Assembly (NCBI GenBank): GCA_023247055.1
Contig: JAHFHF010000005.1
Coordinates: forward strand, 18,985 to 82,984
DNA: 64,000 nt
Origin: Candidatus Omnitrophota bacterium
GTDB lineage: Bacteria > Omnitrophota > Omnitrophia > Omnitrophales > Aquincolibacteriaceae
Direction: 5' to 3'
The position numbers and the translations under genes are program-made. This document shows positions 1 to 24,571 of the stretch, one piece after another. Position 1 is the stretch's first letter. Each line of letters starts with the position of its first letter. The notes under the pieces are model-generated. The model did not search any database, was not told the origin of the DNA, and saw only the letters and a list, made by a program, of their open reading frames with translations.

Positions 1-3000
1 TATGTGCTGCTGGCGTTGCAACAGCGTTTTCCCGATCAATTCCCTCAGGCCGCAGCCGAAAAGCTGAGCGGATTCTTTCAGAGCTATCAACAGCAAACCC
101 CCAGCCGTCCTGCGAAAAAGGGAGACATCATCGCCTTCGGTGCTTTTGAAAGTCCGCAGCAATTTCAAGATTATATCGATTTCAAAGATGAACTTTTGTT
201 TGCGGTCGTCCCGGCGCCGGGAAATTGGCGGTTTCAGGATCACGCCTATGAATTTATGGCCCAGCGCAACAAGGGCCGGATGGAGATGACCTTCTATCGC
301 GGAGATGGAACAATCGATGAAAATAGAACGGCAGATGACAAACTGCTCGAGAGCGGACTGCTGACAAAAGGAAATATTATTTTTGTGCTGCGCGGAACCC
401 CAAATGGGATTTCAATGCCGCCTATTTTTCCTCGAGTCGCCGGCCGGATGGGACACACCCACCCTCCGGACACTGTTATTCCAGGGGAAAGCGAAAATGA
501 TTCGCTGACCTATCTTGCGAATCATCAGGAACTAGGTATTACCAGGCGTAACTTGCTTTCTGCCCGCTCCGAAGTGCGGCACACGCCGGATGAAATAGGC
601 GCAAAGATGGCTGAAGCGAGGCGATTGATTGCGGGCAATCAAATTCAGCAGGCAGAAGATACTTTGCTGGAGCTTTTTGAAAGTTCGCGCCAGGAGTGGG
701 ATGCCCGGCAGACGTATAAGGATGAAACTGCAAAAACGGAAGTTAAGGGAGATGTAGGAGATTTGCTTCATTTGGCGGAGTTAGCGCTTGCCGCGGCCGT
801 GGCATTGGAGGATTCTGAAACGCCAAAAGCCAAGAAACGTGCGTGGAACCCTTTTCATTCTTTCGAATATTTTTATTTAATAGCACGCTCTCCGGAAGTT
901 GTGCCCTTTTTGCGAGAAAATCATGCTGCTTTCCAACAGATGGGGCTTTATGCGGGGTCGTATATTTCGAAAATGAATGAGTTGCAAAATCAGGAAACGC
1001 AATCCCGGCAATATGGGGGGGAGCCGCCGGAAAAATTATTGCAAAATTCTAATCTTGTAAGCCCCCATTTTTTTGCATTAGCTAAAAATGTTTCAAGGCG
1101 ATTGCACGGCGAATTGACATTTGAAAACGGAGAGAACCCCTTTAGGGGTTTGCTGCGCTTAAATGGAGAGTTCAGCGGCACCACTGCCCATTTTCCGGAC
1201 CATCAAGCGCTCGAGTTTTTGATTTCCCATGCTTCCATCCTGCTGGAACTGAGTGCTCCTGCGCTTGCGGGCTATTTGCAGTATTTGGCGCATTATATAG
1301 CCAAGACTATGCAGACAGACGGGTATTACGAAACCGAAATCAATCGAGGAAATGAAGACCTGCCGCGGATTCAGGTTTACAGGAATCCTTTAGCCAGCTT
1401 AAGTATTCTTCAAGGGCTGTTTTCTATCCAAAATGATTCCCAGGATCAGAAAACAAACAGGGCGATAAACTATCTTCGCATCATGTCGCTATACGTCTCG
1501 TTGGACCAGCCGGATTCAATCCTGCAAGTTCTCGATGAAGTTCTTCCTGAATTATCTAAAGTGGAGAAGAAGGATCGGGATGTATTTGCATACACCCTTC
1601 TTAGAATTTACAGATCGAATTTGACGGAAAACCAAAAAGCAGAAGCCGTCCGCCGGGCGGGCTCGTCTTTTCACGTCAAAAAGATAATCGGGGATATCAG
1701 CAATGAACAGGCGCTTGAAATTTTAAACCGTTTAGCACGCCTGGATGCCCAGTCCGCATTGCCGCGCATGATTCCTGAAACCACGCCCGAATTTTACAGC
1801 CGTCATGCGGAATTATTGACGGCTTTTGAAGGCCTGCCGGCAGCGGAGCAGGATGCCCTCGCGAATTTTTTATACGAAGAATTTGCCGACCGAAATTTAA
1901 CAGAAGCCTCTCTCAAAGCGCTGCTTAGCCCCCAGGCGGTTTCTTTTTATGCCAGGCATGGCCGGCAATCCGAACTTCTGGTTTCTTTTATCGCGCGTTT
2001 CCCCGGCCAGTTAGAGGCCATTACCCGGGAAGGCAGTGAGTTTGTGGCTTTAATGCTGCAGTTAATCCAGTTAGATCCTAAATTTTCAAAAGGATATATT
2101 AGTTTTCTGCATTATTCGGAACAAAGCGAATATCTTCAAACAACAGAGGTTTTGGAAAGATGGATTCAGCTTGTTAAAAAAGAGCCCAAAGGGGCAGAGC
2201 AGGTCTTTGCCCTTTTGCGGAAACGGCCGGAACTGGCGCCTGCCATTTTATTTGGGGGCATTTCGGAAAGTTTGATGCAAATGAAGCCGGATGTCCGGGC
2301 AAGTTATGTGGATGCCGCGGGCAACAGATCGGCGGAAACTTCCGCAGAATGGGTGGCCCCTGCCATTGCCGAAATCGCTGCGGTATTAAAAGGCCGCGCG
2401 GAGGCGGAAGCATTCAACAAGAGGTTTACACAAGACGAGGCCTTTCGGACATTAACGCTGGATGAAGCAATGCGCGCGCCGCTCATTGAAAATTTGGCGC
2501 GCCAGCCAGTCGCGACCCAAGCATCCTATCTTAGAAATGTCACGCCAGACATTTTACAGGATCCTGCCATGGCCGATTTTCAGGTGCGTCTCGACGCCAT
2601 TGAAGACGCGGAGTTGAAAGGGGAAATCCTGGAAGCCATCTCGAAAAACAAAGTTTTCAGAGACTATCTGATGCAGGGGGGCCTGGGTTTTCTGATAGAG
2701 TTGATTCAGAGCAGCCCCGACGCGAACGAAGGTCTAAATCGGGCTCAAGGCTATGTCCTCATTCTGCGCTACGATTCTTCCGGTGCTCTTACCGTCGCCG
2801 ATTATCAAAGTATTCAAGGAAAATACGGTGGGCTCCTGACGGATGCGGAGGTACCCTTATCCTTTTCTGCCGAAATCCTAAGGCTTGCAAGGAACCAGCC
2901 TGCCTTAATAGGTCACATCGATTTGACCCTGCTGAGAGAACTTCACAATCAATTGGGCGAACTTTTCGATGATTTTATTAACATTGCCTGTGAGGATCCG

Positions 3001-15000: not shown

Positions 15001-18000
15001 CGTCGCACAAATCGAAAAAAGAGCGCCGAAAAAATTATAGTAAGGAAAATTGTTTCTAGTAGTAATGATGTTTCCGAAGGCGTCGGGTCTGCAAAACCGG
15101 CAGCCCGCTCCGAAATGCGCCTACCAGCGCGAGCCGAAGTGCGGACAGGCAGTATGGCGGAAAGAATCGCTAAAGAAAGGCTTCACCGCCAAGATGTTCT
15201 GGAGCAATTCCGGGAAATGCGTCGCGATCTTTCAACGCGTACAACCATTCGAAAGCAGGTCGGACCAGATATCTGGGAGGATCGGAAGATGACCGAGGCC
15301 GATCGGGAGAAAGAAGCGCGGCGTCTTGACAGGCAAGTCCAATATGCCCAGCAGCGTTTTCTTTTGGATTCGGATGCCCTGATCGCAAAGCAGCTTGCTG
15401 TGAAGGATTCATTCGCGGCTTTGAAAGGGCATCAATCAGGCGCGTTTGGGGATAAAGCCCGTTTCCGCCATGATTTTGAGTTCGCTGTTTCTAATCGTCT
15501 TGGCTCCCTGTTTAATGAGACGCCTCCGAGCGATGCCGACCTGCTTTTTGTCCAAGAAGCCCTGAAGCAAATCCCGGAAGAAATCTCACGCCGCCCGCGA
15601 TGGATTGCGGATGATCAGGGGAATGTTTATTCCTACATTTCGGGAGGCGGGGAGCGATCCTACTATGCAAATGAGCAGACCGGCGAGGGGGTTTATGTTT
15701 ATGGGTACCAACCGCATTATCCCAATGTTGCTCTGAAACACCTGCAACTCTATATCGCCATCATCAACCGGCTGCGCGCTGCTCCTGAATTCCAGAACTC
15801 GAAATTTGCCATTCCCGAGTATGAAGTCGTGGTCCTGCATCAGCCCGGATTCGAACAAAATTTTTATGGGCTTAAAACAAGGCATATTCCGGGGACGCTC
15901 GCAGGCGCAGATACGACCAGATATAGAGCCAAGGTGGATGCTTTTGTGACGCTGGCCAAACGATTGCTGCATGACATGCTCTATGCGGGCTATTTAGTGG
16001 ACGACGGCGAAAATGCTTTGGGCAAGCCTGATACGCATTTTAATAATTTCATCGAGTCTGGGGGCACTTTTTACGGCGTCGATCTGATCACGATGAGCGA
16101 TATCATCAAAGGCGCGGACAGTCTTGCTCGAGACCTCGGCATCCAAAGCCTGCCGGAAAAGGAAGATTTGCCTGCTTACTTGCAATCCCCAACTGCCGAA
16201 AAAATTAAGGAATTGTTTTTTCAGGCCGTGAAGGACTACCAGAACATCCCTCGCTCCGATGCCGGAACGGAAACCGGGCTTTCTATTTCAGACCGGTTGC
16301 TCATTGCGAGGGAAAAGCTGGCGGTTTTTACGCAGGAGCTCGTCAAAAAATGGCTTGAAGGCGCCTATGATGAGCCGGGAGTCAAGCCGGTCGAACTGGG
16401 CAGTCTTGACAAGCCAGAGGTTGTGCAATTAAAAAGGCTTATTGACGGAAATCGTATGGGAGACGCTACGAGTTACGTTGCAGACAAGGAACACCCGCTT
16501 TTTCCCTATCTTCTCTACCTTGTTCAAAGCGATAGCCTGCCTGTTCCGGCAGGCTTTGCCGGCGAAGCGCCCAGCATGAAAGCGACGCTTTTGGAACAGC
16601 TTCAAAACGGCGCCTTGACCAAAGGAAATTTGAATCTTGGAGACTATTTCCGGGATTATCGCGACTGGGACCAATATGGTTTTATCCGCAAAGAAACCGT
16701 GGTGGCCATTGAGCTGAGAAATGAATTTCTAAAGGGCCTTGTACGGGAAAGGCTATTTTCAGGGTTAGTGCCGGCGGCTTTGGATTCCTTGGACAAGTTG
16801 AGCGCGCAATCCGGTGTTGAGATTCCCTCTGAAATCCGCGAAGAATTTACAACGGCATTGTGGAAATATGTGGACCTGGAAATGCAGCAGCAATGGTGGA
16901 GTGTCAGTTCAGAGCGCTTCGGTCCGCTGGACAGTGTGATCATTGAGAAAATCCGGGCCAGCAGCCGTTCCGAGATACGGATCGGCGCAGCCCTTCAACG
17001 GGCGCTGGCAAAAAAGCGCAGCCCTGAAAAAAGAGCTGAATATCTTAGAGATCTGGCTAACGGGCTTGACGATTTTTCAAAATTTTTGCTCATGGACGTG
17101 ACCTATGGGGAAATTCAAAGAACGAGCCATCCCCCCGGCATTGCCAGAATAAAAGAGAATGTGGAGTCTTACGCGCGGGCCCGCGTGGAAATGTTGCTGC
17201 GTTTTGATGAGGAAACGCGCCGGCGTATTGTCGGGGCCAGCGCGACCGAAGACAATGGGCCTAATAATGAGTACGCGCTGAGATCGTTTTTTAAAGCGGT
17301 CGAGGTCTTCGAAAAGTTACTGGGCGCGGACTATGATCCGGCCGGCTTGCGGGAATATCTTGTGAAAATTTTGACCTACTATTTTACGGGCGCGGAATTC
17401 GAGAAGCGATGGAGCAACGATGCGCAGGATTTGCAGGCCATTGTGGAGGGCGAAGCCTTTGACGCAGGCTTTAATGAGATCACTTATGAAAAGATTTCTA
17501 CGGGCACTTTTTCTTATACCCACAAGCCAACCGATGAATGGCTTGGATACGACAGCCGGGTAGTTTTAAAATATACGGACGAAGTCTCGCAAAGAAACGA
17601 ATTTTACAGGTTGACCGGGTTTTATCCGGAAAACGTCCACGACAAACAAGACCTTTTTGCCCCGCCCTATTTTTATTATTCGCAGTTGATCAAAGCCCAT
17701 GTGAATCCCCGGGATCAGGATTTGACAGTTGTTTACGGGGACCTGCGCTACAACAGTAATATCGCGATCCTTCTGATGCAAACCAATGCCGCAAAAGCTT
17801 ATTTGCCTGCCCGCAATAAAGGAACACTTGAGGAAGCACAGGCGGCTCTGGAAAGCTGGGATTTTGAAGAAATTCGCACAAGGGCGGAAGGGCTTGCCCG
17901 GCCTGTGAATGCGCCATTGAGCCTGGGAGGATTCACACAACAGGTCGCCTATGGGAAAAATTTTGCTAAAGCGGTAGTCAATGAACTCAAAGGTCTTGGC

Positions 18001-21000
18001 CTAAAAAAAGAAGATGTGCATGTTTCTCGAGACGAAAAGGGACGCCTCGTTTTTAAATTTCCGTGGGGTTATCCAGGGACGCAGGAGAAAAAAATTCGCA
18101 CGATTATTTTTTCAGATACCGATTTAATCGATGAGGGGGAAAGAAAAAGTTTCATTCAAACGCTCGCCGGCGAAACCATCCATCTTTATTATGAACACCC
18201 GGGCCAAATTAATTTGAGTGGGGAAAGCCTTGAAGCCAAAAATGAATACCCCGCGCTTCTAGCGGACATGGCCAATCTGTTGCCGCCAGACGGGCGGATC
18301 GTGACCGGCCAGTATGATTCCTGGGGCGGGCGGATTGAAGACCGAGGCGGAAATGACGAGAGTGCCGGACGAAACGTTTTGGCCCAGAGTTTTGTTCCGG
18401 AAGATCTTTCGCGGAGTGCACAATGGTGGAGCCGTGGGATTCCGGAAGCACATCGCTTGGGTTTTGGAGGAAACACCCGGATTTTTAAAAGAAGCGGAGG
18501 AGCAGTGGTCTCTCCAGAAACAGCCAGGCCTTCTCTCGAGCAAATACTGCCGCATCGTGAGCAGCCCCTTCGTTTTGCAGGTGATACGAGGATCGACTTC
18601 AAGGCTGTCCCCGACACGAATTATTTTCTCGCCTACGTAAAACAGCTTACCGAGGGAGCAAAGTATTTAAAAGCTTTTGTGGATGCGGTCAATTACCCCG
18701 GAGAAGTTTTGAATGCCGATGCGAACGGAAGAATTGCCAATGATCCGGATCAATTAATTCAAGAAGCTTTTGACCATATCGTCCGTATACGTCAGGGTGA
18801 GGAACAGGCGAATCGCGGCAGAAAAGAATTGGGTTTTGACTCGAAGAATGATTTTAATGATCTGAGCAGGCCGGAGAACCTAGTGGCCATGATGTCCTAC
18901 CTGGCGTTTGGCGAAGTCCTGCCCTGGGACAATGCGGATGACACCTTGAAAGGGCGCTTGCAAAAAGCGCAAAGTCTTGCGCGGTTGTTTGATGAGGCTT
19001 TGCCCCCAACGGAAGATGTGGAAAATGCGGCTCTTCAAACCATCGCCTATAAGGATTCCAAAAGGGCCCGTGGAATTCTTTTGGAAACAGTGGCGGTTTT
19101 TGCGTTAATTGAGGAAATGATCTTAGACTTTGAAAGCAAAGGGGAAGGGACGGATAAAAGTCTGACTTTCGATCAATTTATTCAGGCAGTCCAGAACGAA
19201 CTCAAAGAGATAAAAGAAACTTGGGGCAATAAGCCGAGAGCTCTTGCCAGAACAGAGGATAAAAAGGGAAGAAAGCGGCTGCGCAGAACACAACAGGAGG
19301 AAAGTCTTGTTCATATTCTCATTGAAGACGACCTCAAGGGAATCAAGCAGCTTGCAGAACGCGCCTTGAACATGGCTTTCGGCTACCGGCCTCAAGACCA
19401 AGGCACGGTGGTGACGCTGCCCCGCTCCGAAGTGCGGAGCATTGTGAACGAAGGGCTTCCCGAGACTTATCCTGGGCGAGATATATTCAGCGCTAAAAAT
19501 ATTCTTGAGGGAACGCCGCTGTGGGAGAAATTGAAAGAGTTTAATCATGGAAAATATCCGGCAGTGATTAATGTTTCCGCACAAAGTACTAAAGCCGCGA
19601 AGGAGTCTTTTGACCGGCAAGTTCAGCATCTCGATAAGAAAGAGATCGTTTATGTCTACTTTCAGATCGAAAATAAAGGCCGCATTACTCATCTTGTCAA
19701 TGTGGATGAAGTTCAGGCGATTGATTCGGAAAACCCCGCGCCGCTTGGACGGCACCCTTTTGTTCTGGCATGGATTGAAGATTCTATAGCTCAAAATTTG
19801 CATTTTACCAGAGTCTCTTTGGGCAAGAACGACTCCGGTCAAGCGAATGATCCGCTGCGCGGGCAGGGCCTCATGAAGCCCGTTTTTGGGCGAATGGAGT
19901 CACTCATAAAATCTCGTTTTCAGGGCTGGACAATCTCTTCCCTGGCGCTGGATGAAAGCGGAAGTGTTCAAAAATTCCTTTCCCATTTTTCAGGAGTGCG
20001 GCACATCACCACGGCACAGGAGGTTCTTCTTGACGATCGCGGTTATGAAAAAATAAGTGAGGGTGATCCGCAGCGATGGGGAAAATTTGTTATGGGCCGT
20101 ATCGCGGCTGGAAGAGATCGCTTGGATCAACCCGCGGCGTATGGTGAAGATAACAAACAGTTAGAAAATTTTTTAAATGAAAGAATTTCAGAAATTCAAG
20201 CTCGCCTTGCTCATTTAAGAGAGGATGTTCAGCACAGGCTTGCCGTGTTGCAAGCGAATTGGGATCAGGAAAGAAGCGATGCTCCACGAAAGGCCAGCCG
20301 TGTTATTTCCGCTATGATAGATCTGATGCGTGGGGATCCTGCCCGTGTGCTTATGTTGGAAGATATTGAGAGGGATCACCAAAGAAAAGGGCTTGATTAT
20401 GGGCAAGAGCAGACGCGTCATCTGGAGAAGGCTCTTCTAGGCCGTATTGAATATAAACAAAAAATCATCAAGAACTCAATTGTATCGCCAGTCATAGTTC
20501 TGGAAAGACAGCTTCACTTTTTTGAAGCAGCACTTCGGTCGCTGCAAGGCGGTGAGGACGCCGCAGGAGCAAGCTTTAAAGCAGAACAAAATGCCGAAAG
20601 ACTCTTTGACAAACTTGCTGAGACTGGCTATGTCGGGGCATGGAATTTTGAACTGCGGGCCAAGGATAAAACGGGCCGTGAGGTTGAAAGATGGAGTGAG
20701 GCGGAAACCCTCGTATTGGAGGTGCGGCTTAAAACGGATGTCGTGGGGCAAATTGCTCTTGATAGGACGCAGCTTCAATTAGCGGGAGACATCTATAAGG
20801 TTTTAGGTGAGAAATTAGCAAGCTTAAAACCGGCTGATTTAACAGGGGCTCAAGAAAGTTTCCGCGCATTTTTTTTAAAAGATCTTGCTCAGTTAAGCCA
20901 GTCGGAGTCTGCTGATATCACAAGAAATACTCGAGATCGTGAGGAGATAGCTTTTGATATGGCCAGTCGTGTTTTGGTTGGCTTTTCTAAAAAAATAGTT

Positions 21001-23757
21001 TTGATTGATTTAGAAAAATCATCAGAGCGGAACCTGCGAGCTGCTGAGGGTGAAAGGCCAACGCTTGACGCACTGCTGGATGCCCAGGTTACAGGGTATT
21101 TAAAGGAGTTTGGATTGTACGGTACCGTGGACTTCGCTTTAGATGGTTTGAAAATTGGACTGCGCCCACGGATCAATTTATGGGTAGAGGTGGGAGTCGA
21201 CCGTGCGGAGTTTGAGAATCAATTGAGCCGCGATGAAGCCTTTTTTACATATAGAAAAGAAAAGAAAACGTTGAATGATATTTTAGTTTTTTTATTGTTT
21301 CATTCCGATGGCAGTCCGCGTGCTGAAACCGAAAGAGAAGCGCTGCTTGAATACACGATGCAGCGCATCGCCGATCTTCAATCTAAAAAAATAGCTGAAC
21401 CCGCAGCCCGCCGCTCTGAAGTGCGTACTGCTCAGCCCAGCACGGCCAGTGACGTTTCTATATCGAATATCCCAGAAGGTTCAAGACGGATTGTCAAAGA
21501 TGGGAAAACTCTTTTTATCACACCGCAAGCAGACCGGGAAATGCAAAGGCTTGATCAACTTGTCGCCGAACGATCGATTGCAGCTGAGTTTTTTGGTTTT
21601 GGTTTGACGAAACAAGTGGAAGATGCTGCTGTTGTCATCGATTTTGTTGTTCCGGAAGCCGTGTATGATTTCGAAAGTCTGTTTTTCGATCAATATCTTT
21701 CGCCGTTGAGAAATGCGTTGGCGCAGTCAAAAAACCTGAAGCTTGCTCTCAGAGAAGACAATGTCGCGCTTATTTCCGATGATGAGAAATATACCTTTGT
21801 ACTCAAAGTCATTGGGAATGAGGCTGCCGGTTGGGCGTCCATTCGCTCTCATATTGAGAAGCTAACCGGCAAGGATTTGCCGGAGGATGTGACGCAACTA
21901 AAAGACCTTTTGAAGACAGACTCTATTGCGGTCAATACAAACTGGGATATGGTAACTTCCGTATCAGGTTTGATACTTACAGAACATTTTGTGAATCGGG
22001 CAAATCAAAGAGCTGAAGAATTAGGCGCCGCGGTGGGGTTTACGATGCATCACCATCCGCAAGTAAGTCTGGCTGTTTTGGTGATGTCTGAGAAACCCTT
22101 GGATAAACGGCGCCTCTATTTTAACGATTTACTTAGGCCGTCTTCCGATGATTTGACAACGATGAAAAGATTGGGCGTTGATTGGTTCGAGATTCGAGCT
22201 TTGGGAACGCCCGAAGATATGGCCTCTCGATCAAAAATAACAAGTGCTTTTTACAGCATTGCTGAAGTCGACCGGTTAGGCCAGCCGGCGAAAGAGGTTA
22301 TCGGAAAACTGCTAGCGCCTGAGGCCCAACAGATTCTGCCACAAACAATGACTGCACTAGTGATTCAATTTTTGAAATCAACGGCAAATCTTTCAGATGC
22401 GGGTTATGACGTTCAAGAAGTCATTAAGTATTTAGCAGGAAAAGAAATAGTTTTACGGTATCAGAGAGAACTGGATGACAATAAAAATATCCGGTCGATA
22501 AGAGATCTGGTTTTGTCTGCTATTTTTTCCAAGGAGCCTCTTTCTGCCGTAAACGACTTAACGCCTGAAGTTCTAGCCCTCCATGTCGAACTAAAAACTT
22601 TTGATCTTTATCAGCGGGTTTTAGCGGCCAACCTGCAAAGCCCCGAAGATAGGCAAGTACTGCTGGACATAGATTTTTGGCATCTCCCTAGAGAAAAAAA
22701 CGTCACAAAAATCAGAGACAATGTAAGCCGGCTTCAGCAATTATTAACTTCCAGTAGTCCCAGTTCCATTGCCGAAAGTTCTGGCCCTGCGGAACAAACC
22801 TCATCCCGCTCCGAAGTGCGGGAAGCCGCGGCTAACCTGGATGAGCTCAAGGTGACGGCGGAGACGCTTGGGAAATTTGCGGCCAGTGGAAAGATTTCAT
22901 CGCAGGAATTCTGGGAGAATGTGGCGCTGAAGCTTGAGCAGATGGAAAAGAGCGGGGCTTCGCTGGATGAGATGACGCGTTTTATTCGCCGTAAGGTCCA
23001 TGCCTATGTCGAAAGCTATCGTTCGGAAACGAAGACGGTGGATGCCGATACAGTCGATCTTCTAGCGGATATGCTGACGAATGTTATCAAGGCGGCATTT
23101 GAAAATCGCAGCGAAGGCGGCGTGGCGATTGGCTGGGCGGTAGGGTCGCAGGATGGACCTTCGCGGCTGTCGGCTGTTTTGAACATGATCGCACGGTTCG
23201 GGCAAACCGGCGCGTTGGAGCGGGTTGTCTTTGCTGGGGAACGCGGCGCCCGGCAAGCGGTCAATAGCGCTGTGCAGCGGCACAACGATCTTGGCAATGT
23301 GAAATTGACATCCATGCCGGCGCTAAACCGCGGCTTGGATGCCTTTTTGGCAACGCAAATGGTTTTACCGGCTATGCATGGCACGGAAGACTTGAAGGGG
23401 ATTGCAGATATTGTGTTGGGTGTCGGGCTGAGACCTGATTTGGGCGCAGAGCCTTCCGAAGCTGATCTTGCGCTGATTGAGATGGCGCAAACGATGGTTC
23501 AAATCACCGTGGCTATCCTGCTGGCTCAGCAAGTCGATGCGCCTGGAAAAGTGATAACGCCCGAATTTTTAAAAGCATCGCTGCTGGATAAAATTCTGGA
23601 TGTCAAAACTTTCCGGCTGAGCGAGCAAACGGTCAATGGCCTGCTGCAGCTTGACTCCAAAGGCCGCCTAGTTGTTTCGCAAAACGGGGTCTTTAACTTG
23701 CTCCGGGCCATGCAGACGGCCATCGCCGCGCGCCAGGCTGCTGCCAAAGCCGCGTAA
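1..23757 (+). CDS. Giant protein, 5'-partial (at least 7,918 aa inside the window, TAA stop at 23755-23757). It is modular, with internal TM segments, twin-arginine-like motifs, an HExxH motif at about 7425-7440 and a recurrent ARSE[MV]R motif.
   Basis: Uninterrupted frame-1 ORF of 23.7 kb in the supplied track; coding-like composition throughout; recurrent in-frame motif copies; enters the window already open, so the true N-terminus lies upstream. Confidence 0.8.
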   Translation, partial: YVLLALQQRFPDQFPQAAAEKLSGFFQSYQQQTPSRPAKKGDIIAFGAFESPQQFQDYIDFKDELLFAVVPAPGNWRFQDHAYEFMAQRNKGRMEMTFYRGDGTIDENRTADDKLLESGLLTKGNIIFVLRGTPNGISMPPIFPRVAGRMGHTHPPDTVIPGESENDSLTYLANHQELGITRRNLLSARSEVRHTPDEIGAKMAEARRLIAGNQIQQAEDTLLELFESSRQEWDARQTYKDETAKTEVKGDVGDLLHLAELALAAAVALEDSETPKAKKRAWNPFHSFEYFYLIARSPEVVPFLRENHAAFQQMGLYAGSYISKMNELQNQETQSRQYGGEPPEKLLQNSNLVSPHFFALAKNVSRRLHGELTFENGENPFRGLLRLNGEFSGTTAHFPDHQALEFLISHASILLELSAPALAGYLQYLAHYIAKTMQTDGYYETEINRGNEDLPRIQVYRNPLASLSILQGLFSIQNDSQDQKTNRAINYLRIMSLYVSLDQPDSILQVLDEVLPELSKVEKKDRDVFAYTLLRIYRSNLTENQKAEAVRRAGSSFHVKKIIGDISNEQALEILNRLARLDAQSALPRMIPETTPEFYSRHAELLTAFEGLPAAEQDALANFLYEEFADRNLTEASLKALLSPQAVSFYARHGRQSELLVSFIARFPGQLEAITREGSEFVALMLQLIQLDPKFSKGYISFLHYSEQSEYLQTTEVLERWIQLVKKEPKGAEQVFALLRKRPELAPAILFGGISESLMQMKPDVRASYVDAAGNRSAETSAEWVAPAIAEIAAVLKGRAEAEAFNKRFTQDEAFRTLTLDEAMRAPLIENLARQPVATQASYLRNVTPDILQDPAMADFQVRLDAIEDAELKGEILEAISKNKVFRDYLMQGGLGFLIELIQSSPDANEGLNRAQGYVLILRYDSSGALTVADYQSIQGKYGGLLTDAEVPLSFSAEILRLARNQPALIGHIDLTLLRELHNQLGELFDDFINIACEDPPVLTEMHFHSMLRSLRADSSIAGDRWLAAAKPNYRNRHRFALQLLEPPKNRFPTSAQMADLLLALRRSDNAGGVDFFERHQAAVKQIHPQILQRLGRMQQPPQEIFDAAALETLAQFSNPAAAQLLLEEINYLAYALKQGKIDASTAAAMRNKITALIQNPAVLNADEKKIDLIKQWLQQAREHAQVHAMGLHFIFNLEFDADVMKELLKGWRGEKFYLDLFDETVLTMLQNAKTEFGSGLTDSILAAASGERDVTYLKTADYYRNIRQKILFLFAADGFKQFPARATNDAALKLIRIDPETLKASLQNLKAWLGNEVIDAQLAQGQFQVLNQWVAFESQMTQAGHGTDLKDHLTRAPPELDRSEYFTVLSGLHLELVGMLINLDKDKAPEDKKIERNWQENLAALKTLDELYRGLLALKQGQTAVDHAIAHQFVQRLLKTGERGLVKEAQLFVRGLKAGVVPVALVSAFLARAAATGNNEFTKRVHILKVLGELLQIHSSITKVKALEGVSAKIVQIVNLFLKAEKAEIGQVRRLHQKLLARLLSAVTGENKISEPAASALSKDLSLLPKILTIITLYYSLEKHGQGRIQDLKDHLQTQLREFILTGDRARIRKAILKTEANQIIMKKLTESGYDLRLLEEGFEIEAVAASWDEKEKEDEVKATIRQLSHDIIEIAARLGFQQQVEGAAAVSQFDHASDAQDFVTAMAQQFPNNPALVQADIVVAQMREVEERAQKEIRAKRSEKIRVVVRKDFLDEASAGGYDYLGSTVPGCFSPNGAHQERPPQTSADAGGTFAIAYDEAGRMIANVDLAFTDKGVVVYTAYSSRADLNLDPVWFKVWQVLSKLAPAVILDPAHRSAGVKEASKQNQPEKNVTAEKLGSQGSMYFDFGRSDAAGKLSYAFSEAIVLRSAQFPEVQSPFLDSKEALPASTASAAQTGKKEDARETVQPVEKLDPKKLNDEEQRKVKKELFDLGLKDIDFAPILRNLNEIILTPGFDLARLLSELKTRPASRGAQPGIPTQNDLEALKRKILELQAEHRIPRGFEEFAEIVQREAPRLRSLRGNARQEELLRILQNTLSETRGVDLSRRPSREVGAIPSRFIENAQLQIESQAAEALTSRLDEARGLLGAASPQEEEQDLIEILFGEYIPQASEVVLSGELIMENGQARLEIKQPGETLAILDQNRVPQGQRTLQFEIYVRQGNLHMEIVDLVASDSSEALRFYANFAQWAQFVSNHLQVPLVIEHETAIFSGRASRFGFHQIKQAQSLIKDNWIKKIQPLLAELGIPGENFATHGVNLDNFRYYEGIITPRPLTGRSEVRTAPEHAARALLHQTKIETRQRHESSRRAFLTALGAAAAGVFIAGDHFSPKEKMNPWRIAVEPEISIDPNVLVENQQAAAVQKIQQWRNDLQRELKEVNTDPETKEIAGELARILGQTAVVYRDQDYPESEPTRIIVDHRAMQGRAQFYISVIHEALHHYYNRNQMLLPETEMVSGFQTAHDLEFYLWPGEEGWVIKQTNVLSAALGIFPEFLKASNADEILYFNGDWLTLPAIAERIQGGHEVAERAALLVKFLPLIAQGQELFFLNQASQKNRQAAEQLLVDILPKNSALDPIIRAALEPALKLNAWLKQNGALSYPRRSEMRGAAPEDESIAETAAASVFQDFISGRSGGKISGRDRQRDLRLLRLVGTRVLAAMPSSVDSKDKSVLLNNFLSRIAMDMVSPEAIRRYLGELSYVLAQAETRLGSGDAGKKVINEIMKAQGRLLPFIQNENSDGQRFYTPEPYRGIENFRRFFDFVFEGWDKTGTGRKGYAANGSVLIHFALETAREKGFSTRQLETRGWRQLLPFLRLNQINFGGQVYRLGKAEILNGAVTTEFAEGRNFIFRADLEDAAGVAQKQILVKLGVKNPEFDEVVTEMARTMGLKTYAVERFDAGEEADKDGFHPIALQLIEFVPSQIVFAQGQDGDGRKISYPNLSPLKTLEAGAKTQALEELGEHLALDYLFGGRDSMMKHFLLTREGRFIKIDNEFLFEYSATPQYPRLAGTLEAQSDFWDFLAALKEGPPMEGWDSEAAIRHGFDRVLTKIAFNDGGAKERLFKIIETRRTSAQQDSLSLDAIKRGIEQRAGHSYEFLKSIAKSARSEMRSIPRIPIPDAVRGETSDSSTSPRGRRPVTRRTFLGLGMWGGVLLTSFSVAKYFGSETERQKKIRESRQRREKQEKIPSKTPWDKFPLDDVKRSDTEKIRQSLQVTLDWLIQTGYGEADILDEYAGYLAQARPGEGLYHSLMSKSFHLKKGIEIEFNERHLLELIRQVKNSESLDLFVVTLAAMIMRESLGLQIMMHAQKPLEEIAKGTEKLELARRKRMPADEMNMYSQPLREFLSQNENEIDRLLALSFAFEYLEAEAEWNFYAAASARNDFSVQGANEALNTVNARALALADRLRVSADSASLLMETQGDDFLIFRSQLAGMTVEKYQLLKQGELARKRKELPEANFLLVNYGTFMEVNRFQPAEEPGKQVGLSPAIIGSMERREWPDFDGFTPYAKRLWPQFHTAVAQLRKDLPFAHALFEAQKKDLLRRMKRLGSDLKPLLDRKSRPEAPLFDGGAKAGNAASVRSEMQFVTPDSSTSPPGRRPVTTDEILKTIISKARSEIRKTLIFAAVVSGGALLAAVGYLKWPSIQRWFESRKSPEEPSSGRRDFLKQALAAASAAALKPSRGLLGVLSPALKPEFTIKTAMGQVAQEEAVSWIKIVTGIETTPSVLPPILSPNKSVVEFVKAIEVEPISSWENLVPPGYEHLLGPSLGGMSDLRTVMINEFIGRLAEKKLSNGRSPLENFGIYEPLGSGRRTYTVAGETYTDYGLTFELRDIADLIKQHLPDGFEDAAWTDAALDRAVSHFAQALTTNPALQNQVRKFRQVKTQERSRKLQQRRDGEENLVMLKKQLAVAERSRRDFANGVGFDGMRDFRTDIDELDDRIKKLTDQIRWEETYVLTLKTALSARSEMRGTAAQQPTLASIFLILGRVSRMASSSVVTLFSMAPSLSLTSVISRQSEATFSLIKDWFDSNLSIRTPTSVAEKFLSFMKRTLLDLRRGVNINFINNLFNKKPNSLSATGRWNMPERGFARSEMRTPRPSPEWERLETLLRKQPTIDIAYTNDFKQLPASQRAELFRKVLYNEYNLSTQGSHAAILNMPIPSAWVVQVRSLIYGMQDAESVSVFLRALQDPSLDLSGFFDAAGLQLSDLLREKPEIILQSLSEQALSLSGLVDLVIQQQASGLVVWLRDLLMHPEVPRAQKFAAMRRIYEKSIVLLNESRPLTPGLETLLPGAMISWELSQSDSEPSVTTQDLKERGRKIRLERLMALNDIFQFVASFIRQNVAVRYSDVENALRTHPEISLKFINLPLAVRAKILSKVALFFHNKYLAKELFEDARRRYSLEDYERMAKNIEALSRDLKQAYRDGAAGDVKLLRSQIRYVRKSLKWLHEKRVAAFYQELTGRKEIPEIIYLELGDASLIVRTDFKSLQKLVDSPQIAKPVEQSVFSQFLSQFSEDRPVPDKNKLRELLAEFPRYIVENFQNEMIAYLAGGTELRYRNFDDLILFYRDNYADWLKKYLERTLYQDAATRTQKQELAALISEIWQGPEWNTVYQQLKNAKALLDQLVDAKATLLFHQSENGAAFEKTTARRKAYLEAGTSIMGILQFVPLSRLAPLQDLLEEYEKQIQTQNISPKQRLRDREQPSMVKAGKERSFQTSGFYSDGIIYTPLESESLVIDHETQHLIHGLYTSDHVRGILPSQGEFNEQLYEALKHTKAARSEMRTASRDQDIKGEDLTVKGTSAENFVMDGENSSIERLRNLLWSENDPRRRLGQYPVIIQDYDANRPGSGKVILRSDDDDVATMPFVPDDPFWDEINAQLNGGISPDHLRRMEDKAGKPIDKFLRSVKFFVLPVFILIFIDGVLGGPVIGRAPWIMANFERAMVMLILSTAVTSLGATGIFYAKKWFLGRRTNRKKSAEKIIVRKIVSSSNDVSEGVGSAKPAARSEMRLPARAEVRTGSMAERIAKERLHRQDVLEQFREMRRDLSTRTTIRKQVGPDIWEDRKMTEADREKEARRLDRQVQYAQQRFLLDSDALIAKQLAVKDSFAALKGHQSGAFGDKARFRHDFEFAVSNRLGSLFNETPPSDADLLFVQEALKQIPEEISRRPRWIADDQGNVYSYISGGGERSYYANEQTGEGVYVYGYQPHYPNVALKHLQLYIAIINRLRAAPEFQNSKFAIPEYEVVVLHQPGFEQNFYGLKTRHIPGTLAGADTTRYRAKVDAFVTLAKRLLHDMLYAGYLVDDGENALGKPDTHFNNFIESGGTFYGVDLITMSDIIKGADSLARDLGIQSLPEKEDLPAYLQSPTAEKIKELFFQAVKDYQNIPRSDAGTETGLSISDRLLIAREKLAVFTQELVKKWLEGAYDEPGVKPVELGSLDKPEVVQLKRLIDGNRMGDATSYVADKEHPLFPYLLYLVQSDSLPVPAGFAGEAPSMKATLLEQLQNGALTKGNLNLGDYFRDYRDWDQYGFIRKETVVAIELRNEFLKGLVRERLFSGLVPAALDSLDKLSAQSGVEIPSEIREEFTTALWKYVDLEMQQQWWSVSSERFGPLDSVIIEKIRASSRSEIRIGAALQRALAKKRSPEKRAEYLRDLANGLDDFSKFLLMDVTYGEIQRTSHPPGIARIKENVESYARARVEMLLRFDEETRRRIVGASATEDNGPNNEYALRSFFKAVEVFEKLLGADYDPAGLREYLVKILTYYFTGAEFEKRWSNDAQDLQAIVEGEAFDAGFNEITYEKISTGTFSYTHKPTDEWLGYDSRVVLKYTDEVSQRNEFYRLTGFYPENVHDKQDLFAPPYFYYSQLIKAHVNPRDQDLTVVYGDLRYNSNIAILLMQTNAAKAYLPARNKGTLEEAQAALESWDFEEIRTRAEGLARPVNAPLSLGGFTQQVAYGKNFAKAVVNELKGLGLKKEDVHVSRDEKGRLVFKFPWGYPGTQEKKIRTIIFSDTDLIDEGERKSFIQTLAGETIHLYYEHPGQINLSGESLEAKNEYPALLADMANLLPPDGRIVTGQYDSWGGRIEDRGGNDESAGRNVLAQSFVPEDLSRSAQWWSRGIPEAHRLGFGGNTRIFKRSGGAVVSPETARPSLEQILPHREQPLRFAGDTRIDFKAVPDTNYFLAYVKQLTEGAKYLKAFVDAVNYPGEVLNADANGRIANDPDQLIQEAFDHIVRIRQGEEQANRGRKELGFDSKNDFNDLSRPENLVAMMSYLAFGEVLPWDNADDTLKGRLQKAQSLARLFDEALPPTEDVENAALQTIAYKDSKRARGILLETVAVFALIEEMILDFESKGEGTDKSLTFDQFIQAVQNELKEIKETWGNKPRALARTEDKKGRKRLRRTQQEESLVHILIEDDLKGIKQLAERALNMAFGYRPQDQGTVVTLPRSEVRSIVNEGLPETYPGRDIFSAKNILEGTPLWEKLKEFNHGKYPAVINVSAQSTKAAKESFDRQVQHLDKKEIVYVYFQIENKGRITHLVNVDEVQAIDSENPAPLGRHPFVLAWIEDSIAQNLHFTRVSLGKNDSGQANDPLRGQGLMKPVFGRMESLIKSRFQGWTISSLALDESGSVQKFLSHFSGVRHITTAQEVLLDDRGYEKISEGDPQRWGKFVMGRIAAGRDRLDQPAAYGEDNKQLENFLNERISEIQARLAHLREDVQHRLAVLQANWDQERSDAPRKASRVISAMIDLMRGDPARVLMLEDIERDHQRKGLDYGQEQTRHLEKALLGRIEYKQKIIKNSIVSPVIVLERQLHFFEAALRSLQGGEDAAGASFKAEQNAERLFDKLAETGYVGAWNFELRAKDKTGREVERWSEAETLVLEVRLKTDVVGQIALDRTQLQLAGDIYKVLGEKLASLKPADLTGAQESFRAFFLKDLAQLSQSESADITRNTRDREEIAFDMASRVLVGFSKKIVLIDLEKSSERNLRAAEGERPTLDALLDAQVTGYLKEFGLYGTVDFALDGLKIGLRPRINLWVEVGVDRAEFENQLSRDEAFFTYRKEKKTLNDILVFLLFHSDGSPRAETEREALLEYTMQRIADLQSKKIAEPAARRSEVRTAQPSTASDVSISNIPEGSRRIVKDGKTLFITPQADREMQRLDQLVAERSIAAEFFGFGLTKQVEDAAVVIDFVVPEAVYDFESLFFDQYLSPLRNALAQSKNLKLALREDNVALISDDEKYTFVLKVIGNEAAGWASIRSHIEKLTGKDLPEDVTQLKDLLKTDSIAVNTNWDMVTSVSGLILTEHFVNRANQRAEELGAAVGFTMHHHPQVSLAVLVMSEKPLDKRRLYFNDLLRPSSDDLTTMKRLGVDWFEIRALGTPEDMASRSKITSAFYSIAEVDRLGQPAKEVIGKLLAPEAQQILPQTMTALVIQFLKSTANLSDAGYDVQEVIKYLAGKEIVLRYQRELDDNKNIRSIRDLVLSAIFSKEPLSAVNDLTPEVLALHVELKTFDLYQRVLAANLQSPEDRQVLLDIDFWHLPREKNVTKIRDNVSRLQQLLTSSSPSSIAESSGPAEQTSSRSEVREAAANLDELKVTAETLGKFAASGKISSQEFWENVALKLEQMEKSGASLDEMTRFIRRKVHAYVESYRSETKTVDADTVDLLADMLTNVIKAAFENRSEGGVAIGWAVGSQDGPSRLSAVLNMIARFGQTGALERVVFAGERGARQAVNSAVQRHNDLGNVKLTSMPALNRGLDAFLATQMVLPAMHGTEDLKGIADIVLGVGLRPDLGAEPSEADLALIEMAQTMVQITVAILLAQQVDAPGKVITPEFLKASLLDKILDVKTFRLSEQTVNGLLQLDSKGRLVVSQNGVFNLLRAMQTAIAARQAAAKAA

Positions 23758-24409: not shown

Positions 24410-24571
24410 ATAGGGTCACTCCTTATGCAAATATTCTTTTAAAATTGTATCATGCGAGCGCATTCTGGAGGATGGCTTTTTCGACGAGGGCCGGGCCCTT
24501 TTTCGGGCCCGGCCCTATCGTTTTTCCGTTTCTTGCGGCATTTCCAGCCCTCTGATATCATACCTCCCGCT

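What the first reader, a model, noticed from the sequence alone, without database searches (positions are those of the whole stretch)
563..22822. Recurrent nucleotide-conserved hairpin motif encoding Ala-Arg-Ser-Glu-Met/Val-Arg, always in the same frame
About 14 copies of GCCCGCTCCGAA(A/G)TGCGG, or close variants, occur inside giant ORF 1. They start at approximately 563, 6949, 7921, 9421, 10942, 11993, 12364, 14425, 15103 (with a second half-copy at 15131), 16963, 19421, 21405 and 22805, plus a degenerate copy at about 10841. One or two further copies occur in giant ORF 2 (57504 and a degenerate one at 61939). Every copy is on the coding strand and in the coding frame, giving [AG]-R-S-E-[MVI]-R, often followed by Thr or Gly. 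Codon choice is conserved well beyond what the peptide requires: Ala, Arg, Ser, Glu and Arg together allow hundreds of synonymous spellings. The DNA/RNA also forms a small hairpin, CCGC-tccgaart-GCGG, with a 4-5 bp stem. I did not find this motif in any housekeeping gene in the window. Possible explanations are a protease processing or linker site delimiting modules of a polyprotein, an RNA-level signal for pausing or recoding, or the footprint of a mobile mini-element or recent gene conversion.
Basis: seen in the sequence. Interest (0 to 1): 0.9.

Follow-up and report, generated by a model that had tools for sequence, protein, structure and literature searches.

The report
Unit-boundary motif in bacterial giant genes
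A five-residue peptide, Arg-Ser-Glu-(Met/Val)-Arg, written with almost the same DNA letters each time, recurs about every 340 residues in the giant genes of Omnitrophota bacteria and falls between whole, ordinary-sized proteins, so it probably marks where these giant proteins are cut into pieces.

Summary
ORF1 (nt 1-23757, at least 7,918 aa) has 13 strong R-S-E-[M/V/I]-R copies and 2 degenerate ones. ORF2 has 2. All are in frame on the coding strand, and there are none in 9,375 codons of ordinary genes.

The motif is clade-wide. An exact 18-mer scan found it in giant ORFs of 15 other species, all Omnitrophota or unnamed MAGs. Each carries further copies, although the flanks are unrelated.

- Variation falls at third codon positions (108 of 136 mismatches), so the peptide is under selection.
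- Synonymous sites are also biased and are more alike within a genome than between genomes. This is unexplained.
- No covariation or folding signal supports the hairpin.
- Copies are a median of 339 aa apart and bracket whole proteins: a full-length glucose-6-phosphate isomerase whose native N-terminus lies 3 residues after the motif, triosephosphate isomerase, a histidine phosphatase and a kinase.
- Twin-arginine export signals, which work only at N-termini, follow the motif within 1-29 residues.

Best reading: a junction and probable protease-processing site in polyprotein-like giant ORFs. These would be the "cleavage points" the literature says are unknown. Cleavage itself is inferred, not shown.

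The parts
1..23757 (+). Giant ORF1. It is open from the window edge, gives 7,918 aa in the window, and ends ...AAAKAA-TAA. The same gene is called as 9,030 aa on another assembly of the same organism.
   Evidence: No Pfam, PDB or close database relatives.
565..579 (+). Motif copy 1, A|RSEVR|H (CGC TCC GAA GTG CGG)
6952..6966 (+). Motif copy 2, G|RSEVR|T. A twin-arginine signal follows 25 aa later.
7036..7110 (+). Twin-arginine export signal inside ORF1 (SSRRAFLTALGAAAAGVFIAG)
   Evidence: TIGR01409 scores 19.6 bits against a cut-off of 16.7
7924..7938 (+). Motif copy 3, R|RSEMR|G (CGT TCG GAA ATG CGG)
9424..9438 (+). Motif copy 4, A|RSEMR|S. A twin-arginine-like signal (TRRTFLGLGMWGG) follows 29 aa later, at about nt 9520-9594.
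   Evidence: TIGR01409 gave no hit on this segment, so the signal rests on the regular-expression test alone.
10843..10857 (+). Degenerate copy, V|RSEMQ|F
   Evidence: Its score of 8.7 is within the shuffled range, so it is not significant on its own.
10945..10959 (+). Motif copy 5, A|RSEIR|K. It is followed directly by a Sec-type hydrophobic segment (KTLIFAAVVSGGALLAAVG) and, at nt 11086-11160, by a twin-arginine signal (GRRDFLKQALAAASAAAL).
   Evidence: TIGR01409 scores 17.3 bits against a cut-off of 16.7.
11995..12009 (+). Motif copy 6, A|RSEMR|G
12367..12381 (+). Motif copy 7, A|RSEMR|T
14428..14442 (+). Motif copy 8, A|RSEMR|T
15106..15120 (+). Motif copy 9, A|RSEMR|L
15130..15144 (+). 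Degenerate copy, A|RAEVR|T
   Evidence: score 8.7
16966..16980 (+). Motif copy 10, S|RSEIR|I (CGT TCC GAG ATA CGG)
19423..19437 (+). Motif copy 11, P|RSEVR|S
21412..21426 (+). Motif copy 12, R|RSEVR|T (CGC TCT GAA GTG CGT)
22807..22821 (+). Motif copy 13, S|RSEVR|E
23746..23757 (+). C-terminal tail of ORF1, ...K-A-A-stop. This is the [A/S]-A ending shared by all 8 giant ORFs of this type whose ends were seen.
55538..64000 (+). Giant ORF2. It starts with a signal-peptide-like N-terminus after a GAGGGAG Shine-Dalgarno sequence and runs off the window. It is called as 3,510 aa, still incomplete, on another assembly.
57506..57520 (+). Motif copy in ORF2, V|RSEVR|I
   Evidence: score 15.4
61940..61954 (+). 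Motif copy in ORF2, P|RSEMR|N (CGT TCC GAA ATG AGA)
   Evidence: score 19.0

Best explanation
The motif is a junction peptide. Its consensus is [A/S/P]-R-S-E-[M>V>A,L,I,T]-R-[T/E/A/S]. It separates independent, protein-sized units that are strung together without stop codons in the giant ORFs of Omnitrophota.

The most likely mechanism is recognition of this linear motif by a dedicated endopeptidase acting in the cytoplasm. On this reading the giant translation product is a polyprotein that is cut into ordinary enzymes, membrane proteins and exported proteins.

Shown here:
- The motif is real, frame-locked and clade-wide.
- Selection acts on the peptide.
- The motif sits at unit boundaries.
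- Export signals follow it.

Inferred:
- That the chain is actually cut.
- By which enzyme.
- At which bond. R-S-E-x-R|T fits a usual P6-P1' protease footprint. A|R-S-E-x-R is suggested by the resemblance between the residues before the motif and the true C-termini of these ORFs.

The extra conservation of synonymous positions is not explained by this mechanism.
For: Peptide-level selection.
- An unbiased nucleotide scan of 25 giant-ORF pieces (55,694 codons) found 116 copies in the coding frame. It found 2 and 0 in the other two frames and 5 on the reverse strand.
- 108 of 136 mismatches fall at third codon positions.
- One copy is spelled AGG AGC GAA GTA CGC.

Clade-wide spread with unrelated flanks.
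- 15 species plus the window carry it.
- Information content is about 0 outside -2..+15.
- An all-against-all BLAST found almost no homology between pieces.

Exclusive to giant ORFs.
- 102 copies lie in 55,694 giant-ORF codons, against 4 in 385,860 other codons. Those 4 sit beside giant ORFs.

Units are whole proteins.
- Median spacing is 339 aa.
- 12 Pfam domains lie between copies. None is cut internally; one variant copy (RSEAR, aa 745) lies 5 residues inside the N-terminal edge of the TIM match.
- In locus L057 (Omnitrophota) FBA, TIM and PGI occupy successive units.
- Met1 of E. coli PGI aligns with the 4th residue after RSEVR, and about 30 linker residues follow the PGI C-terminus before the next copy.
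- The L067/L086 homology block begins at aligned motif copies.

N-terminal-type signals.
- 5 of 7 twin-arginine-like signals lie 1-29 aa after a copy, against 1.2 expected (p = 0.0035).
- TIGR01409 passes its curated cut-off twice inside ORF1.

Linker-like context.
- Pro, Ser and Thr are enriched in the flanks. Position -1 is Ala (4.1x) and position +1 is Thr (5x).

Internal initiation is excluded for some units. The copy before PGI uses GTC as its fourth codon.

Literature.
- Internal signal-peptide calls were discarded as artefacts in 10.64898/2026.06.07.730766.

Parallel cases.
- Other large Omnitrophota-type ORFs carry their own recurrent junction peptides.
- One of them ([I/L]-x-G-A|M-H-E, 10 copies in L121) looks like a double-glycine peptidase site.
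Against: - There is no direct evidence of cleavage: no proteomics and no peptidase domain detected in the 10,750 aa of giant ORF in this window.
- A protease site does not explain three features. Synonymous sites are fixed. The two Arg codons prefer different spellings (CGY versus CGG). Spelling is more uniform within a genome than between genomes (0.61 versus 0.49, p < 0.0005; codon usage explains only 0.013 of the 0.12 difference).
- Enrichment of hydrophobic segments after the motif is only marginal (7.4% versus 4.0%, p about 0.05).
- Some units are very short (27-130 aa) and one stretch of 2,129 aa has no copy.
- Some well-known multi-enzyme polypeptides work uncut (my own knowledge).
Confidence: 0.55

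Rival explanations
1. The motif is a peptide-level junction that is not cut. It would act as a conserved hinge or docking site between units, for example for a chaperone, a secretion or membrane-insertion factor, or a modifying enzyme acting on its Ser. The giant protein would work as one chain.
For: - Everything that shows peptide selection and boundary position fits this reading equally well.
- No peptidase was found in the window.
- The published topology models treat these proteins as single membrane-anchored chains with many helices.
Against: - Twin-arginine signals placed 1-29 aa after the motif have no known function inside a chain.
- PGI and TIM act as soluble oligomers. The PGI unit begins 3 residues after the motif, as if the motif marks a native N-terminus.
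- A docking function also leaves the synonymous-site bias unexplained.
Confidence: 0.2
2. The main function is at the RNA level and coupled to translation. Candidates are a pause, recoding or ribosome-skipping signal, an endonuclease site that cuts the giant mRNA into translatable pieces, or an internal start at the A/GTG codon.
For: - Synonymous sites are far more uniform than the peptide requires.
- The two Arg codons prefer different spellings.
- The third base of the fourth codon is G in 76% of copies whatever the amino acid.
- CGG at the last Arg goes with an A/GTG fourth codon (61% versus 30%).
- Spelling is genome-specific.
- Strict strand and frame locking fits a translation-coupled signal.
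- Two other lineages have nucleotide-conserved junctions centred on ATG or GTG.
Against: - Mismatches follow the wobble pattern, so the amino acids are what is kept.
- There is no covariation in either hairpin register, folding z-scores are unremarkable, and Rfam gives no match.
- Nothing resembling a ribosome-binding site is conserved upstream; information content is about 0 beyond -2.
- About 40% of the non-ascertained copies (46 of 113) have a fourth codon other than ATG or GTG, such as GCG, ACG, GTC or GTA; these are not start codons. This includes the copy before PGI.
- There is no slippery heptamer in the sequence.
- Two further lineages keep their junction peptide without nucleotide conservation.
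Confidence: 0.12
3. The motif is a DNA-level cassette junction. It would be the core site or scar of a recombination or gene-conversion process that inserts, shuffles or homogenises in-frame modules. The peptide would be a tolerated by-product.
For: - The conserved block is about 17 nt.
- Spelling is more alike within a genome than between genomes.
- Junction motifs differ between lineages but are uniform within each.
- Giant ORFs are poorly conserved in unit content (Seymour et al.).
- Homology between L067 and L086 starts at the motif.
Against: - Variation is concentrated at wobble positions, and a fully re-spelled copy exists. Both point to selection on the peptide.
- The window has no recombinase next to the giant ORFs.
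- There are no inverted repeats or target duplications around copies.
- 15-18 nt is short for homologous recombination (my own knowledge).
Confidence: 0.1
4. The motif is a generic genomic word (such as an uptake sequence or REP element), a chance recurrence, or a residue of recent tandem duplication.
For: None found.
Against: - Shuffling controls exclude chance.
- The motif is absent from ordinary genes, from the other frames and from the reverse strand.
- The flanks do not align.
- It is present in 15 other species.
Confidence: 0.01

Closest known systems
Giant ORFs of Omnitrophota (Seymour et al. 2023, PMC10066038; West-Roberts et al. 2023, bioRxiv 10.1101/2023.11.21.568195, 'Archaeovorins'; bioRxiv 10.64898/2026.06.07.730766)
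   Same: - The ORFs are very long, with few recognisable domains, poor conservation and scattered transmembrane segments.
- Glycolytic enzyme domains (TIM, PGI, FBA) are embedded in them.
- Cleavage into smaller products has already been suspected.
   Different: - None of these papers, as searched, mentions a recurrent junction motif. One states that cleavage points are unknown.
- ORF1 here has no Pfam domain at all and is incomplete, so it cannot be assigned to the Archaeovorin or dockerin types.
Cleavage sites of viral polyproteins (for example 3C/3C-like, potyvirus NIa/TEV, flavivirus NS2B-NS3)
   Same: - A short linear motif of 5-7 residues recurs in one long ORF at the boundaries of mature proteins.
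- A small residue follows it.
- The consensus is lineage-specific.
   Different: - This is a cellular genome, with tens of units per ORF that include housekeeping enzymes.
- No cognate protease has been identified and cleavage has not been shown.
- Viral sites are not, to my knowledge, conserved at synonymous positions as this motif is.
Double-glycine leader processing by C39 peptidase domains (bacteriocin exporters)
   Same: - C39 domains are reported to be common in Omnitrophota giant proteins.
- The junction of another lineage (L121, [I/L]-x-G-A|M-H-E) fits the I-x-G-[G/A] pattern.
   Different: - For R-S-E-x-R the residue at -2 is Ser, Pro or Lys. Gly is not enriched there.
- The conserved residues would lie on the wrong side of a double-glycine cut. 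This is a tested mismatch.
Multi-core RiPP precursors (for example the cyanobactin PatE) and Kex2-processed repeat precursors
   Same: - Variable cassettes are separated by conserved protease recognition sequences within one ORF.
- In patE-type genes the recognition sequences are conserved at the nucleotide level while the cassettes vary (my own knowledge).
   Different: In those systems the cassettes are peptides of a few residues. Here they are whole enzymes of 100-800 aa.
2A 'StopGo' ribosome-skipping peptides of picornaviruses
   Same: One ORF yields separate proteins at a short conserved peptide without a stop codon.
   Different: - The consensus D(V/I)ExNPG|P is absent.
- The mechanism is known only in eukaryotic translation.
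- Nothing here tests it.

Membership tests
Omnitrophota giant ORF (Seymour et al. criterion) | Open reading frame longer than 20 kb | tested here: met
   ORF1 is open for 23,754 nt from the window edge. It is called as 9,030 aa on contig k141_5769294 of the same organism.
Omnitrophota giant ORF (Seymour et al. criterion) | Few annotated domains and poor conservation | tested here: met
   No Pfam hit above threshold in 7,918 + 2,833 aa. No PDB sequence relatives. Only distant HMMER hits.
Omnitrophota giant ORF (Seymour et al. criterion) | The organism belongs to the phylum Omnitrophota | tested here: inconclusive
Membership is inferred from the motif being shared with 15 Omnitrophota or unnamed species and from distant hits to Omnitrophota and Elusimicrobia proteins.
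Archaeovorin type (West-Roberts et al.) | At least 30,000 aa with the characteristic domain set (GT1, TPR, C39, SecA-like and others) | tested here: not met
   None of these domains was found in the part of ORF1 or ORF2 held in the window. Both ORFs are truncated, so their full length is unknown.
Polyprotein cleavage site | A short linear motif recurring at boundaries of independently folding mature proteins | tested here: met
   12 Pfam domains lie between copies and none is cut internally; one variant copy (RSEAR) overlaps the first 5 residues of the TIM match. The PGI N-terminus lies 3 residues after the motif. Median spacing is 339 aa.
Polyprotein cleavage site | New N-termini are generated at the site | tested here: inconclusive
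   The evidence is indirect only. Twin-arginine signals lie 1-29 aa after copies (p = 0.0035), and TIGR01409 is above its cut-off twice.
Polyprotein cleavage site | A cognate protease encoded by the same genome or ORF | tested here: inconclusive
   No peptidase family was detected in the window. HExxH motifs occur at ORF1 aa ~2476 and ~4771 but are unassigned. C39 and S8 domains are reported in other giant ORFs.
Polyprotein cleavage site | Cleavage products observed | not testable with these tools
   Needs proteomics or biochemistry.
Double-glycine (C39) processing site | Gly at -2 and Gly/Ala/Ser at -1 of the cut, with a hydrophobic residue at -4 | tested here: not met
   Before R-S-E-x-R, position -1 is Ala or Ser in 52% of copies. 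Position -2 is Ser, Pro or Lys, and Gly is not enriched. The pattern is met by the separate L121 motif.
Structured RNA element (hairpin) | Base pairs kept through compensatory changes, and stability beyond composition | tested here: not met
   Observed pairing equals the expectation under independence for every candidate pair. Folding z-scores run from +0.1 to -2.7, mostly weaker than -1.7. No Rfam family matches.
Internal translation start | A start codon at every copy plus a ribosome-binding signal upstream | tested here: not met
   The fourth codon is not ATG or GTG in 46 of 113 non-ascertained copies (GCG, GTA, GTC, ACG and others). No purine-rich or any other conservation lies upstream of -2. 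Ordinary genes in the window show Shine-Dalgarno-like sites instead.
2A / StopGo peptide | The consensus D(V/I)ExNPG|P | tested here: not met
   The sequence shows R-S-E-x-R and no NPGP.
Mobile mini-element / uptake sequence / REP | Copies on both strands and in intergenic DNA, with terminal repeats or shared flanks | tested here: not met
   116 copies lie in frame against 7 elsewhere. 102 lie in giant ORFs against 4 outside. No conservation beyond 17 nt.
Twin-arginine signal peptide (TIGR01409), for the segments after copies 2 and 5 | Score above the curated cut-off of the model | tested here: met
   19.6 and 17.3 bits against a cut-off of 16.7. The L081 example scores 13.9 bits, below the cut-off.

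The most novel reading that the evidence does not exclude
Omnitrophota giant ORFs are operons without stop codons. Dozens to hundreds of ordinary proteins, including glycolytic enzymes and exported proteins, are written in one frame and separated at a lineage-specific, dual-coded junction. The peptide is one layer. The genome-specific nucleotide spelling is a second layer that is read by the translation or RNA-processing machinery, for example through bacterial ribosome skipping or site-specific mRNA cutting, rather than only by a protease.
Probability: 0.12. Interest if true: 0.95.

Novelty: new variant of a known kind. Interest (0 to 1): 0.8.

Why it matters
Giant genes of 20 to more than 400 kb are a hallmark of Omnitrophota. 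The literature states openly that nobody knows whether their products work as one chain or are cut, or where they would be cut.

A conserved junction motif gives candidate cut points. That has several practical consequences:
- Giant ORFs can be split for annotation and structure prediction.
- It offers a way out of the paradox of cytoplasmic enzymes and internal signal peptides inside "membrane-anchored" giants.
- The processing question becomes directly testable by proteomics and reporter assays.

If cleavage is confirmed, this would be polyprotein expression on a scale not known in cellular organisms.

Tried and rejected
Searches that returned nothing useful:
- Three word-indexed protein searches found nothing: ORF1 aa 2301-3700, aa 2318-3146, and a synthetic concatenation of motif variants. 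A 5,000-aa query timed out.
- A metagenome scan for relatives of ORF1 aa 3980-5060 found none.
- PDB sequence searches of all of ORF1 found none.
- Rfam found nothing.
- A literature string search for the peptide returned only MRI papers.

Ideas tested and not supported:
- Hairpin covariation in two registers showed no signal.
- I could not obtain a diverged orthologue of ORF1 for a synonymous-rate test. All contigs carrying neighbouring genes were 99.98-100% identical to the window.
- Enrichment of hydrophobic segments after the motif was only marginal.

Ideas considered and rejected:
- Frameshift site: there is no slippery heptamer.
- GNRA or UUCG tetraloop, or a T-loop mimic: the closing pairs do not fit.
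- Furin/kexin or S1P-type consensus: the positions of Arg do not match.
- Signal peptidase A-x-A rule: position -3 is not small.

I did not run structure prediction, because the units have no homologues to build alignments from.
Full report
**The observation**

The window holds two very long ORFs. ORF1 is open from nt 1 to a TAA at 23755-23757 (7,918 aa, its 5' end outside the window). ORF2 starts at nt 55538 and runs off the window.

Two degenerate copies, RSEMQ at 10843 and RAEVR at 15130, also exist.

The recurrence is well beyond chance:
- The 18-mer with up to 2 mismatches matches 9 times against 0.05 expected.
- Shuffled ORF1 gives 0.07 peptide copies against 13 observed.
- No copy lies in any other frame or strand, or in the 27 ordinary ORFs (9,375 aa) between the giant ORFs.
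- A weight matrix trained only on other genomes picks out exactly these 15 copies, with a clear gap to everything else.

**Where the window comes from**

The ordinary genes are bacterial housekeeping genes: the liv ABC transporter, hemA/C/D/B, pfk, folD and a PPi-type PEPCK. ORF1 and ORF2 have no Pfam domain, no PDB relative and no close database relative.

I scanned one genome per species for the exact 18-mer GCCCGCTCCGAARTGCGG. In about 23 of them the motif sat, in frame, in an ORF that stayed open across most or all of the locus, up to the full 8 kb held. These loci come from 15 genomes labelled Candidatus Omnitrophota (including Ca. Taenariivivens) or "uncultured bacterium". The remaining loci were single matches in short ORFs of unrelated taxa, as chance predicts.

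The window therefore most likely comes from an Omnitrophota genome.

**The motif is a property of the clade's giant genes**

Each of those giant-ORF pieces carries several further copies. Over 25 pieces there are 129 R-S-E-[MVILAT]-R copies in 55,694 aa. The flanks do not align with one another.

An unbiased nucleotide scan with CGCTCCGAARTGCGG and up to 3 mismatches found 116 copies in the coding frame. It found 2 in frame +1, none in frame +2 and 5 on the reverse strand. Across all six frames of these loci and the window, R-S-E-[M/V]-R occurs 102 times in the giant-ORF frame and 4 times in 385,860 other codons. Those 4 lie next to giant ORFs.

**Peptide or nucleic acid?**

Both leave a mark, and the peptide's is the stronger.
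- 108 of the 136 mismatches fall at third codon positions. Most of the rest fall in the fourth codon, which varies M > V > A, L, I, T.
- One copy is spelled AGG AGC GAA GTA CGC.

That is the signature of selection on amino acids.

The synonymous positions are nevertheless far from free (113 copies not ascertained by the search pattern):
- The first Arg is CGC or CGT in 92% of copies (background 45%). CGG appears in 2% against 23%.
- Ser is TCC in 62%. AGY is almost absent, against a 33% background.
- The third base of the fourth codon is G in 76%.
- The last Arg is CGG in 54% (background 23%).
- Conservation stops sharply at -2 and +15.

Spelling is also more alike within a genome than between genomes (0.61 against 0.49, permutation p < 0.0005). 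A simulation from each genome's own codon usage accounts for only 0.013 of that 0.12 difference. The CGG preference at the last Arg holds only when the fourth codon is ATG or GTG (61% against 30%).

I have no satisfying explanation for this second layer.

**The hairpin**

The CCGC/GCGG stem can be drawn, and so can a competing UCCG/CGGR stem. Neither is supported:
- For every candidate pair the number of paired copies equals the number expected from independent column frequencies.
- Folding energies of the 13 window copies are mostly within 1.7 sd of shuffled controls.
- Rfam finds nothing in the window.

**What the motif separates**

Copies are a median of 339 aa apart, with an interquartile range of 192-487. 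That is the size range of ordinary bacterial proteins.

Wherever Pfam recognises something in these ORFs, the domain lies between copies and none is split internally; the single overlap is a variant copy (RSEAR) 5 residues inside the N-terminal edge of the TIM match (12 domains). The clearest case is locus L057, from an Omnitrophota MAG:
- A class II aldolase domain, a triosephosphate isomerase and a full-length glucose-6-phosphate isomerase (E = 7e-172) sit in successive units.
- Aligned to solved PGI structures, Met1 of the E. coli enzyme corresponds to the 4th residue after RSEVR.
- About 30 extra residues follow the canonical C-terminus before the next copy.

So the motif abuts the N-terminus of the next protein.

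Other units hold a histidine phosphatase (L107), a protein kinase (L118), a methyltransferase (L068), a PEMT-family membrane protein (L055) and a cupin (L011). The one long homology block between two genomes (L067/L086, 26% identity over about 990 aa) begins at aligned motif copies. The residues around the motif are enriched in Pro, Ser and Thr, with Ala at -1 (4.1x) and Thr at +1 (5x).

**Signals that belong at N-termini**

In ORF1 the motif at aa 2318 is followed after 25 residues by SSRRAFLTALGAAAAG. The one at aa 3142 is followed after 29 residues by TRRTFLGLGMWGG. The one at aa 3649 is followed directly by KTLIFAAVVSGGALLAAVG and then by GRRDFLKQALAAASAAAL. In L081 the sequence reads RSEIR-NRRGFLGQIV.

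Of 7 twin-arginine-like signals in all the pieces, 5 lie 1-29 residues after a copy, against 1.2 expected (p = 0.0035). The curated TIGR01409 model passes its cut-off on two ORF1 segments. Twin-arginine signal peptides are known to work only at N-termini (established knowledge). Their placement argues that new N-termini arise at or near the motif.

A general excess of hydrophobic segments after the motif is only marginal.

**How it probably works**

The simplest account is that these giant ORFs are polyproteins and R-S-E-x-R is the recognition site of a processing endopeptidase that acts in the cytoplasm. The released units would then be cytoplasmic, membrane-bound or exported.

Internal initiation at the A/GTG codon is unlikely:
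- 46 of the 113 non-ascertained copies (about 40%) have a fourth codon other than ATG or GTG, such as GCG, ACG, GTC or GTA. These are not start codons.
- The copy in front of PGI uses GTC.
- Nothing upstream resembles a ribosome-binding site, whereas ordinary genes here have Shine-Dalgarno-like sites.

Which bond would be cut is open:
- R-S-E-x-R|[T/E/A/S] gives a conventional P6-P1' footprint and a near-native PGI N-terminus.
- A|R-S-E-x-R is suggested by a separate observation. All 8 giant ORFs of this type whose true ends I could see finish in [A/S]-A-stop (for example KAA, SAA, ASA), which resembles the residues before the motif. Ordinary genes end in no such pattern.

No peptidase domain was found in the window. 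ORF1 has two unassigned HExxH motifs.

**Comparison with what is known**

Giant ORFs in Omnitrophota are known. West-Roberts et al. report TIM, PGI and aldolase domains in them. [quoted passage not shown] A 2026 preprint on complete genomes discards internal signal-peptide calls as artefacts and does not mention motifs or cleavage. No searched paper links Omnitrophota with a junction motif or polyprotein sites.

What is new here is the motif and its placement, not the giant genes or the idea of cleavage.

Functionally the closest analogues are viral polyprotein sites and multi-cassette peptide precursors. The double-glycine pattern of C39 substrates is not met by this motif.

**A wider pattern**

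The exhaustive HMMER search with ORF1 aa 5000-6199 found only distant relatives. Those large proteins, some from Omnitrophota or Elusimicrobia, lack R-S-E-x-R but have recurrent short peptides of their own:
- In L121, [I/L]-x-G-A-M-H-E occurs 10 times in four adjacent large ORFs. It is always spelled GGCGCGATGCATGA, and its first copy comes just after each signal peptide. It fits a double-glycine-type site.
- In L120 (Omnitrophota), A-A-S-S-A-V-G recurs as TCTTCGGCGGTG.
- In L124 and L125, K-S-A|A-P-G-M-K-A-P and x-A|S-S-L-G recur as peptides without nucleotide conservation.

This suggests lineage-specific junction codes, which is what protease-substrate co-evolution would produce. It rests on few copies per lineage.

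**Verdict**

The finding is real, highly non-random and clade-wide. That it marks boundaries between protein-sized units is well supported (about 0.9). That it is a proteolytic processing site is the best explanation, but it is inferred (0.55).

The hairpin is not supported. The synonymous-site constraint and its genome-specific spelling remain unexplained and keep an RNA- or DNA-level layer alive.

Noticed in passing
window 23746-23757; loci L114, L023, L059, L057, L107, L031, L084: Every giant ORF of this type whose true end was visible (8 of 8) terminates in [A/S]-A-stop, for example KAA, YAA, SAA, QSA and ASA. Of the 12 large proteins fetched from the HMMER hits, 9 also end in Ala (and 4 further large ORFs read in loci L121 and L125 do too). 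Ordinary genes in the window end in no such pattern. The ending resembles an ssrA-like or C-terminal recognition tail, and also the residues just before the junction motif.
   Followed up: partly
L121 1-17145 (ENA ERZ27247725 k141_1847411): Four adjacent large ORFs share a signal peptide, a conserved C-terminus (...NLLQA) and 10 in-frame copies of [I/L]-x-G-A-M-H-E spelled GGCGCGATGCATGA. The first copy lies 39-62 aa from each visible N-terminus. It looks like a double-glycine-type processing site.
   Followed up: partly
L120 1-6937 (Omnitrophota JACROS010000013.1); L124 3818-9778; L125 10001-16705; L126 1491-15806: Other large ORFs have recurrent junction-like peptides of their own. AASSAVG is conserved at the nucleotide level. 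KSA|APGMKAP and xA|SSLG are conserved only as peptides. In L126, TSHQSLVT is a small nucleotide repeat (ACTAGTCAC...) and may be something different.
   Followed up: partly
L057, ORF aa 745-1046: The triosephosphate isomerase unit appears to be circularly permuted. The Pfam match covers profile positions 43-241 at aa 740-967. The N-terminal signature (LVLAANWK...VEIIVAPP) follows at about aa 985-1040, just before the next junction motif.
   Followed up: no
window 9484-9525 and 10861-10902 (ORF1 aa ~3162-3175 and ~3621-3634): A short segment, (T/P)DSSTSP(R/P)GRRPVT, occurs twice in ORF1, each time shortly after a motif or degenerate motif copy.
   Followed up: no
window ~7420-7450 and ~14300-14330 (ORF1 aa ~2476 and ~4771): Two HExxH zinc-peptidase-like motifs occur in ORF1. 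HEALHHYYN lies in the unit that begins with a twin-arginine signal. HETQHLIHG lies about 40 aa before the motif at aa 4810. No family could be assigned to either.
   Followed up: no
window 33940-34165 and 44287-44469: Two intergenic tandem repeats lie among the housekeeping genes: an 80-nt unit x 2.8 copies at 97% matches, and a 58-nt unit x 3.1 copies at 99% matches.
   Followed up: no
window 24452-28075: The 1,207-aa ORF just after ORF1 carries a PPi-dependent PEPCK lobe (PF26300, precomputed annotation). It has no junction motif and is an ordinary large enzyme, not part of the giant-ORF system.
   Followed up: no
window 14998-18597 (ORF1 aa 5885-6155): A domain of about 250 aa (VVNPD..VYGGAG.D.S.FLLST...DIYYQRA...YGW.V.IR.K in relatives) is shared with many large Omnitrophota and Elusimicrobia proteins, often in several copies, and with stand-alone proteins of 284-407 aa. 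It has no Pfam family.
   Followed up: no
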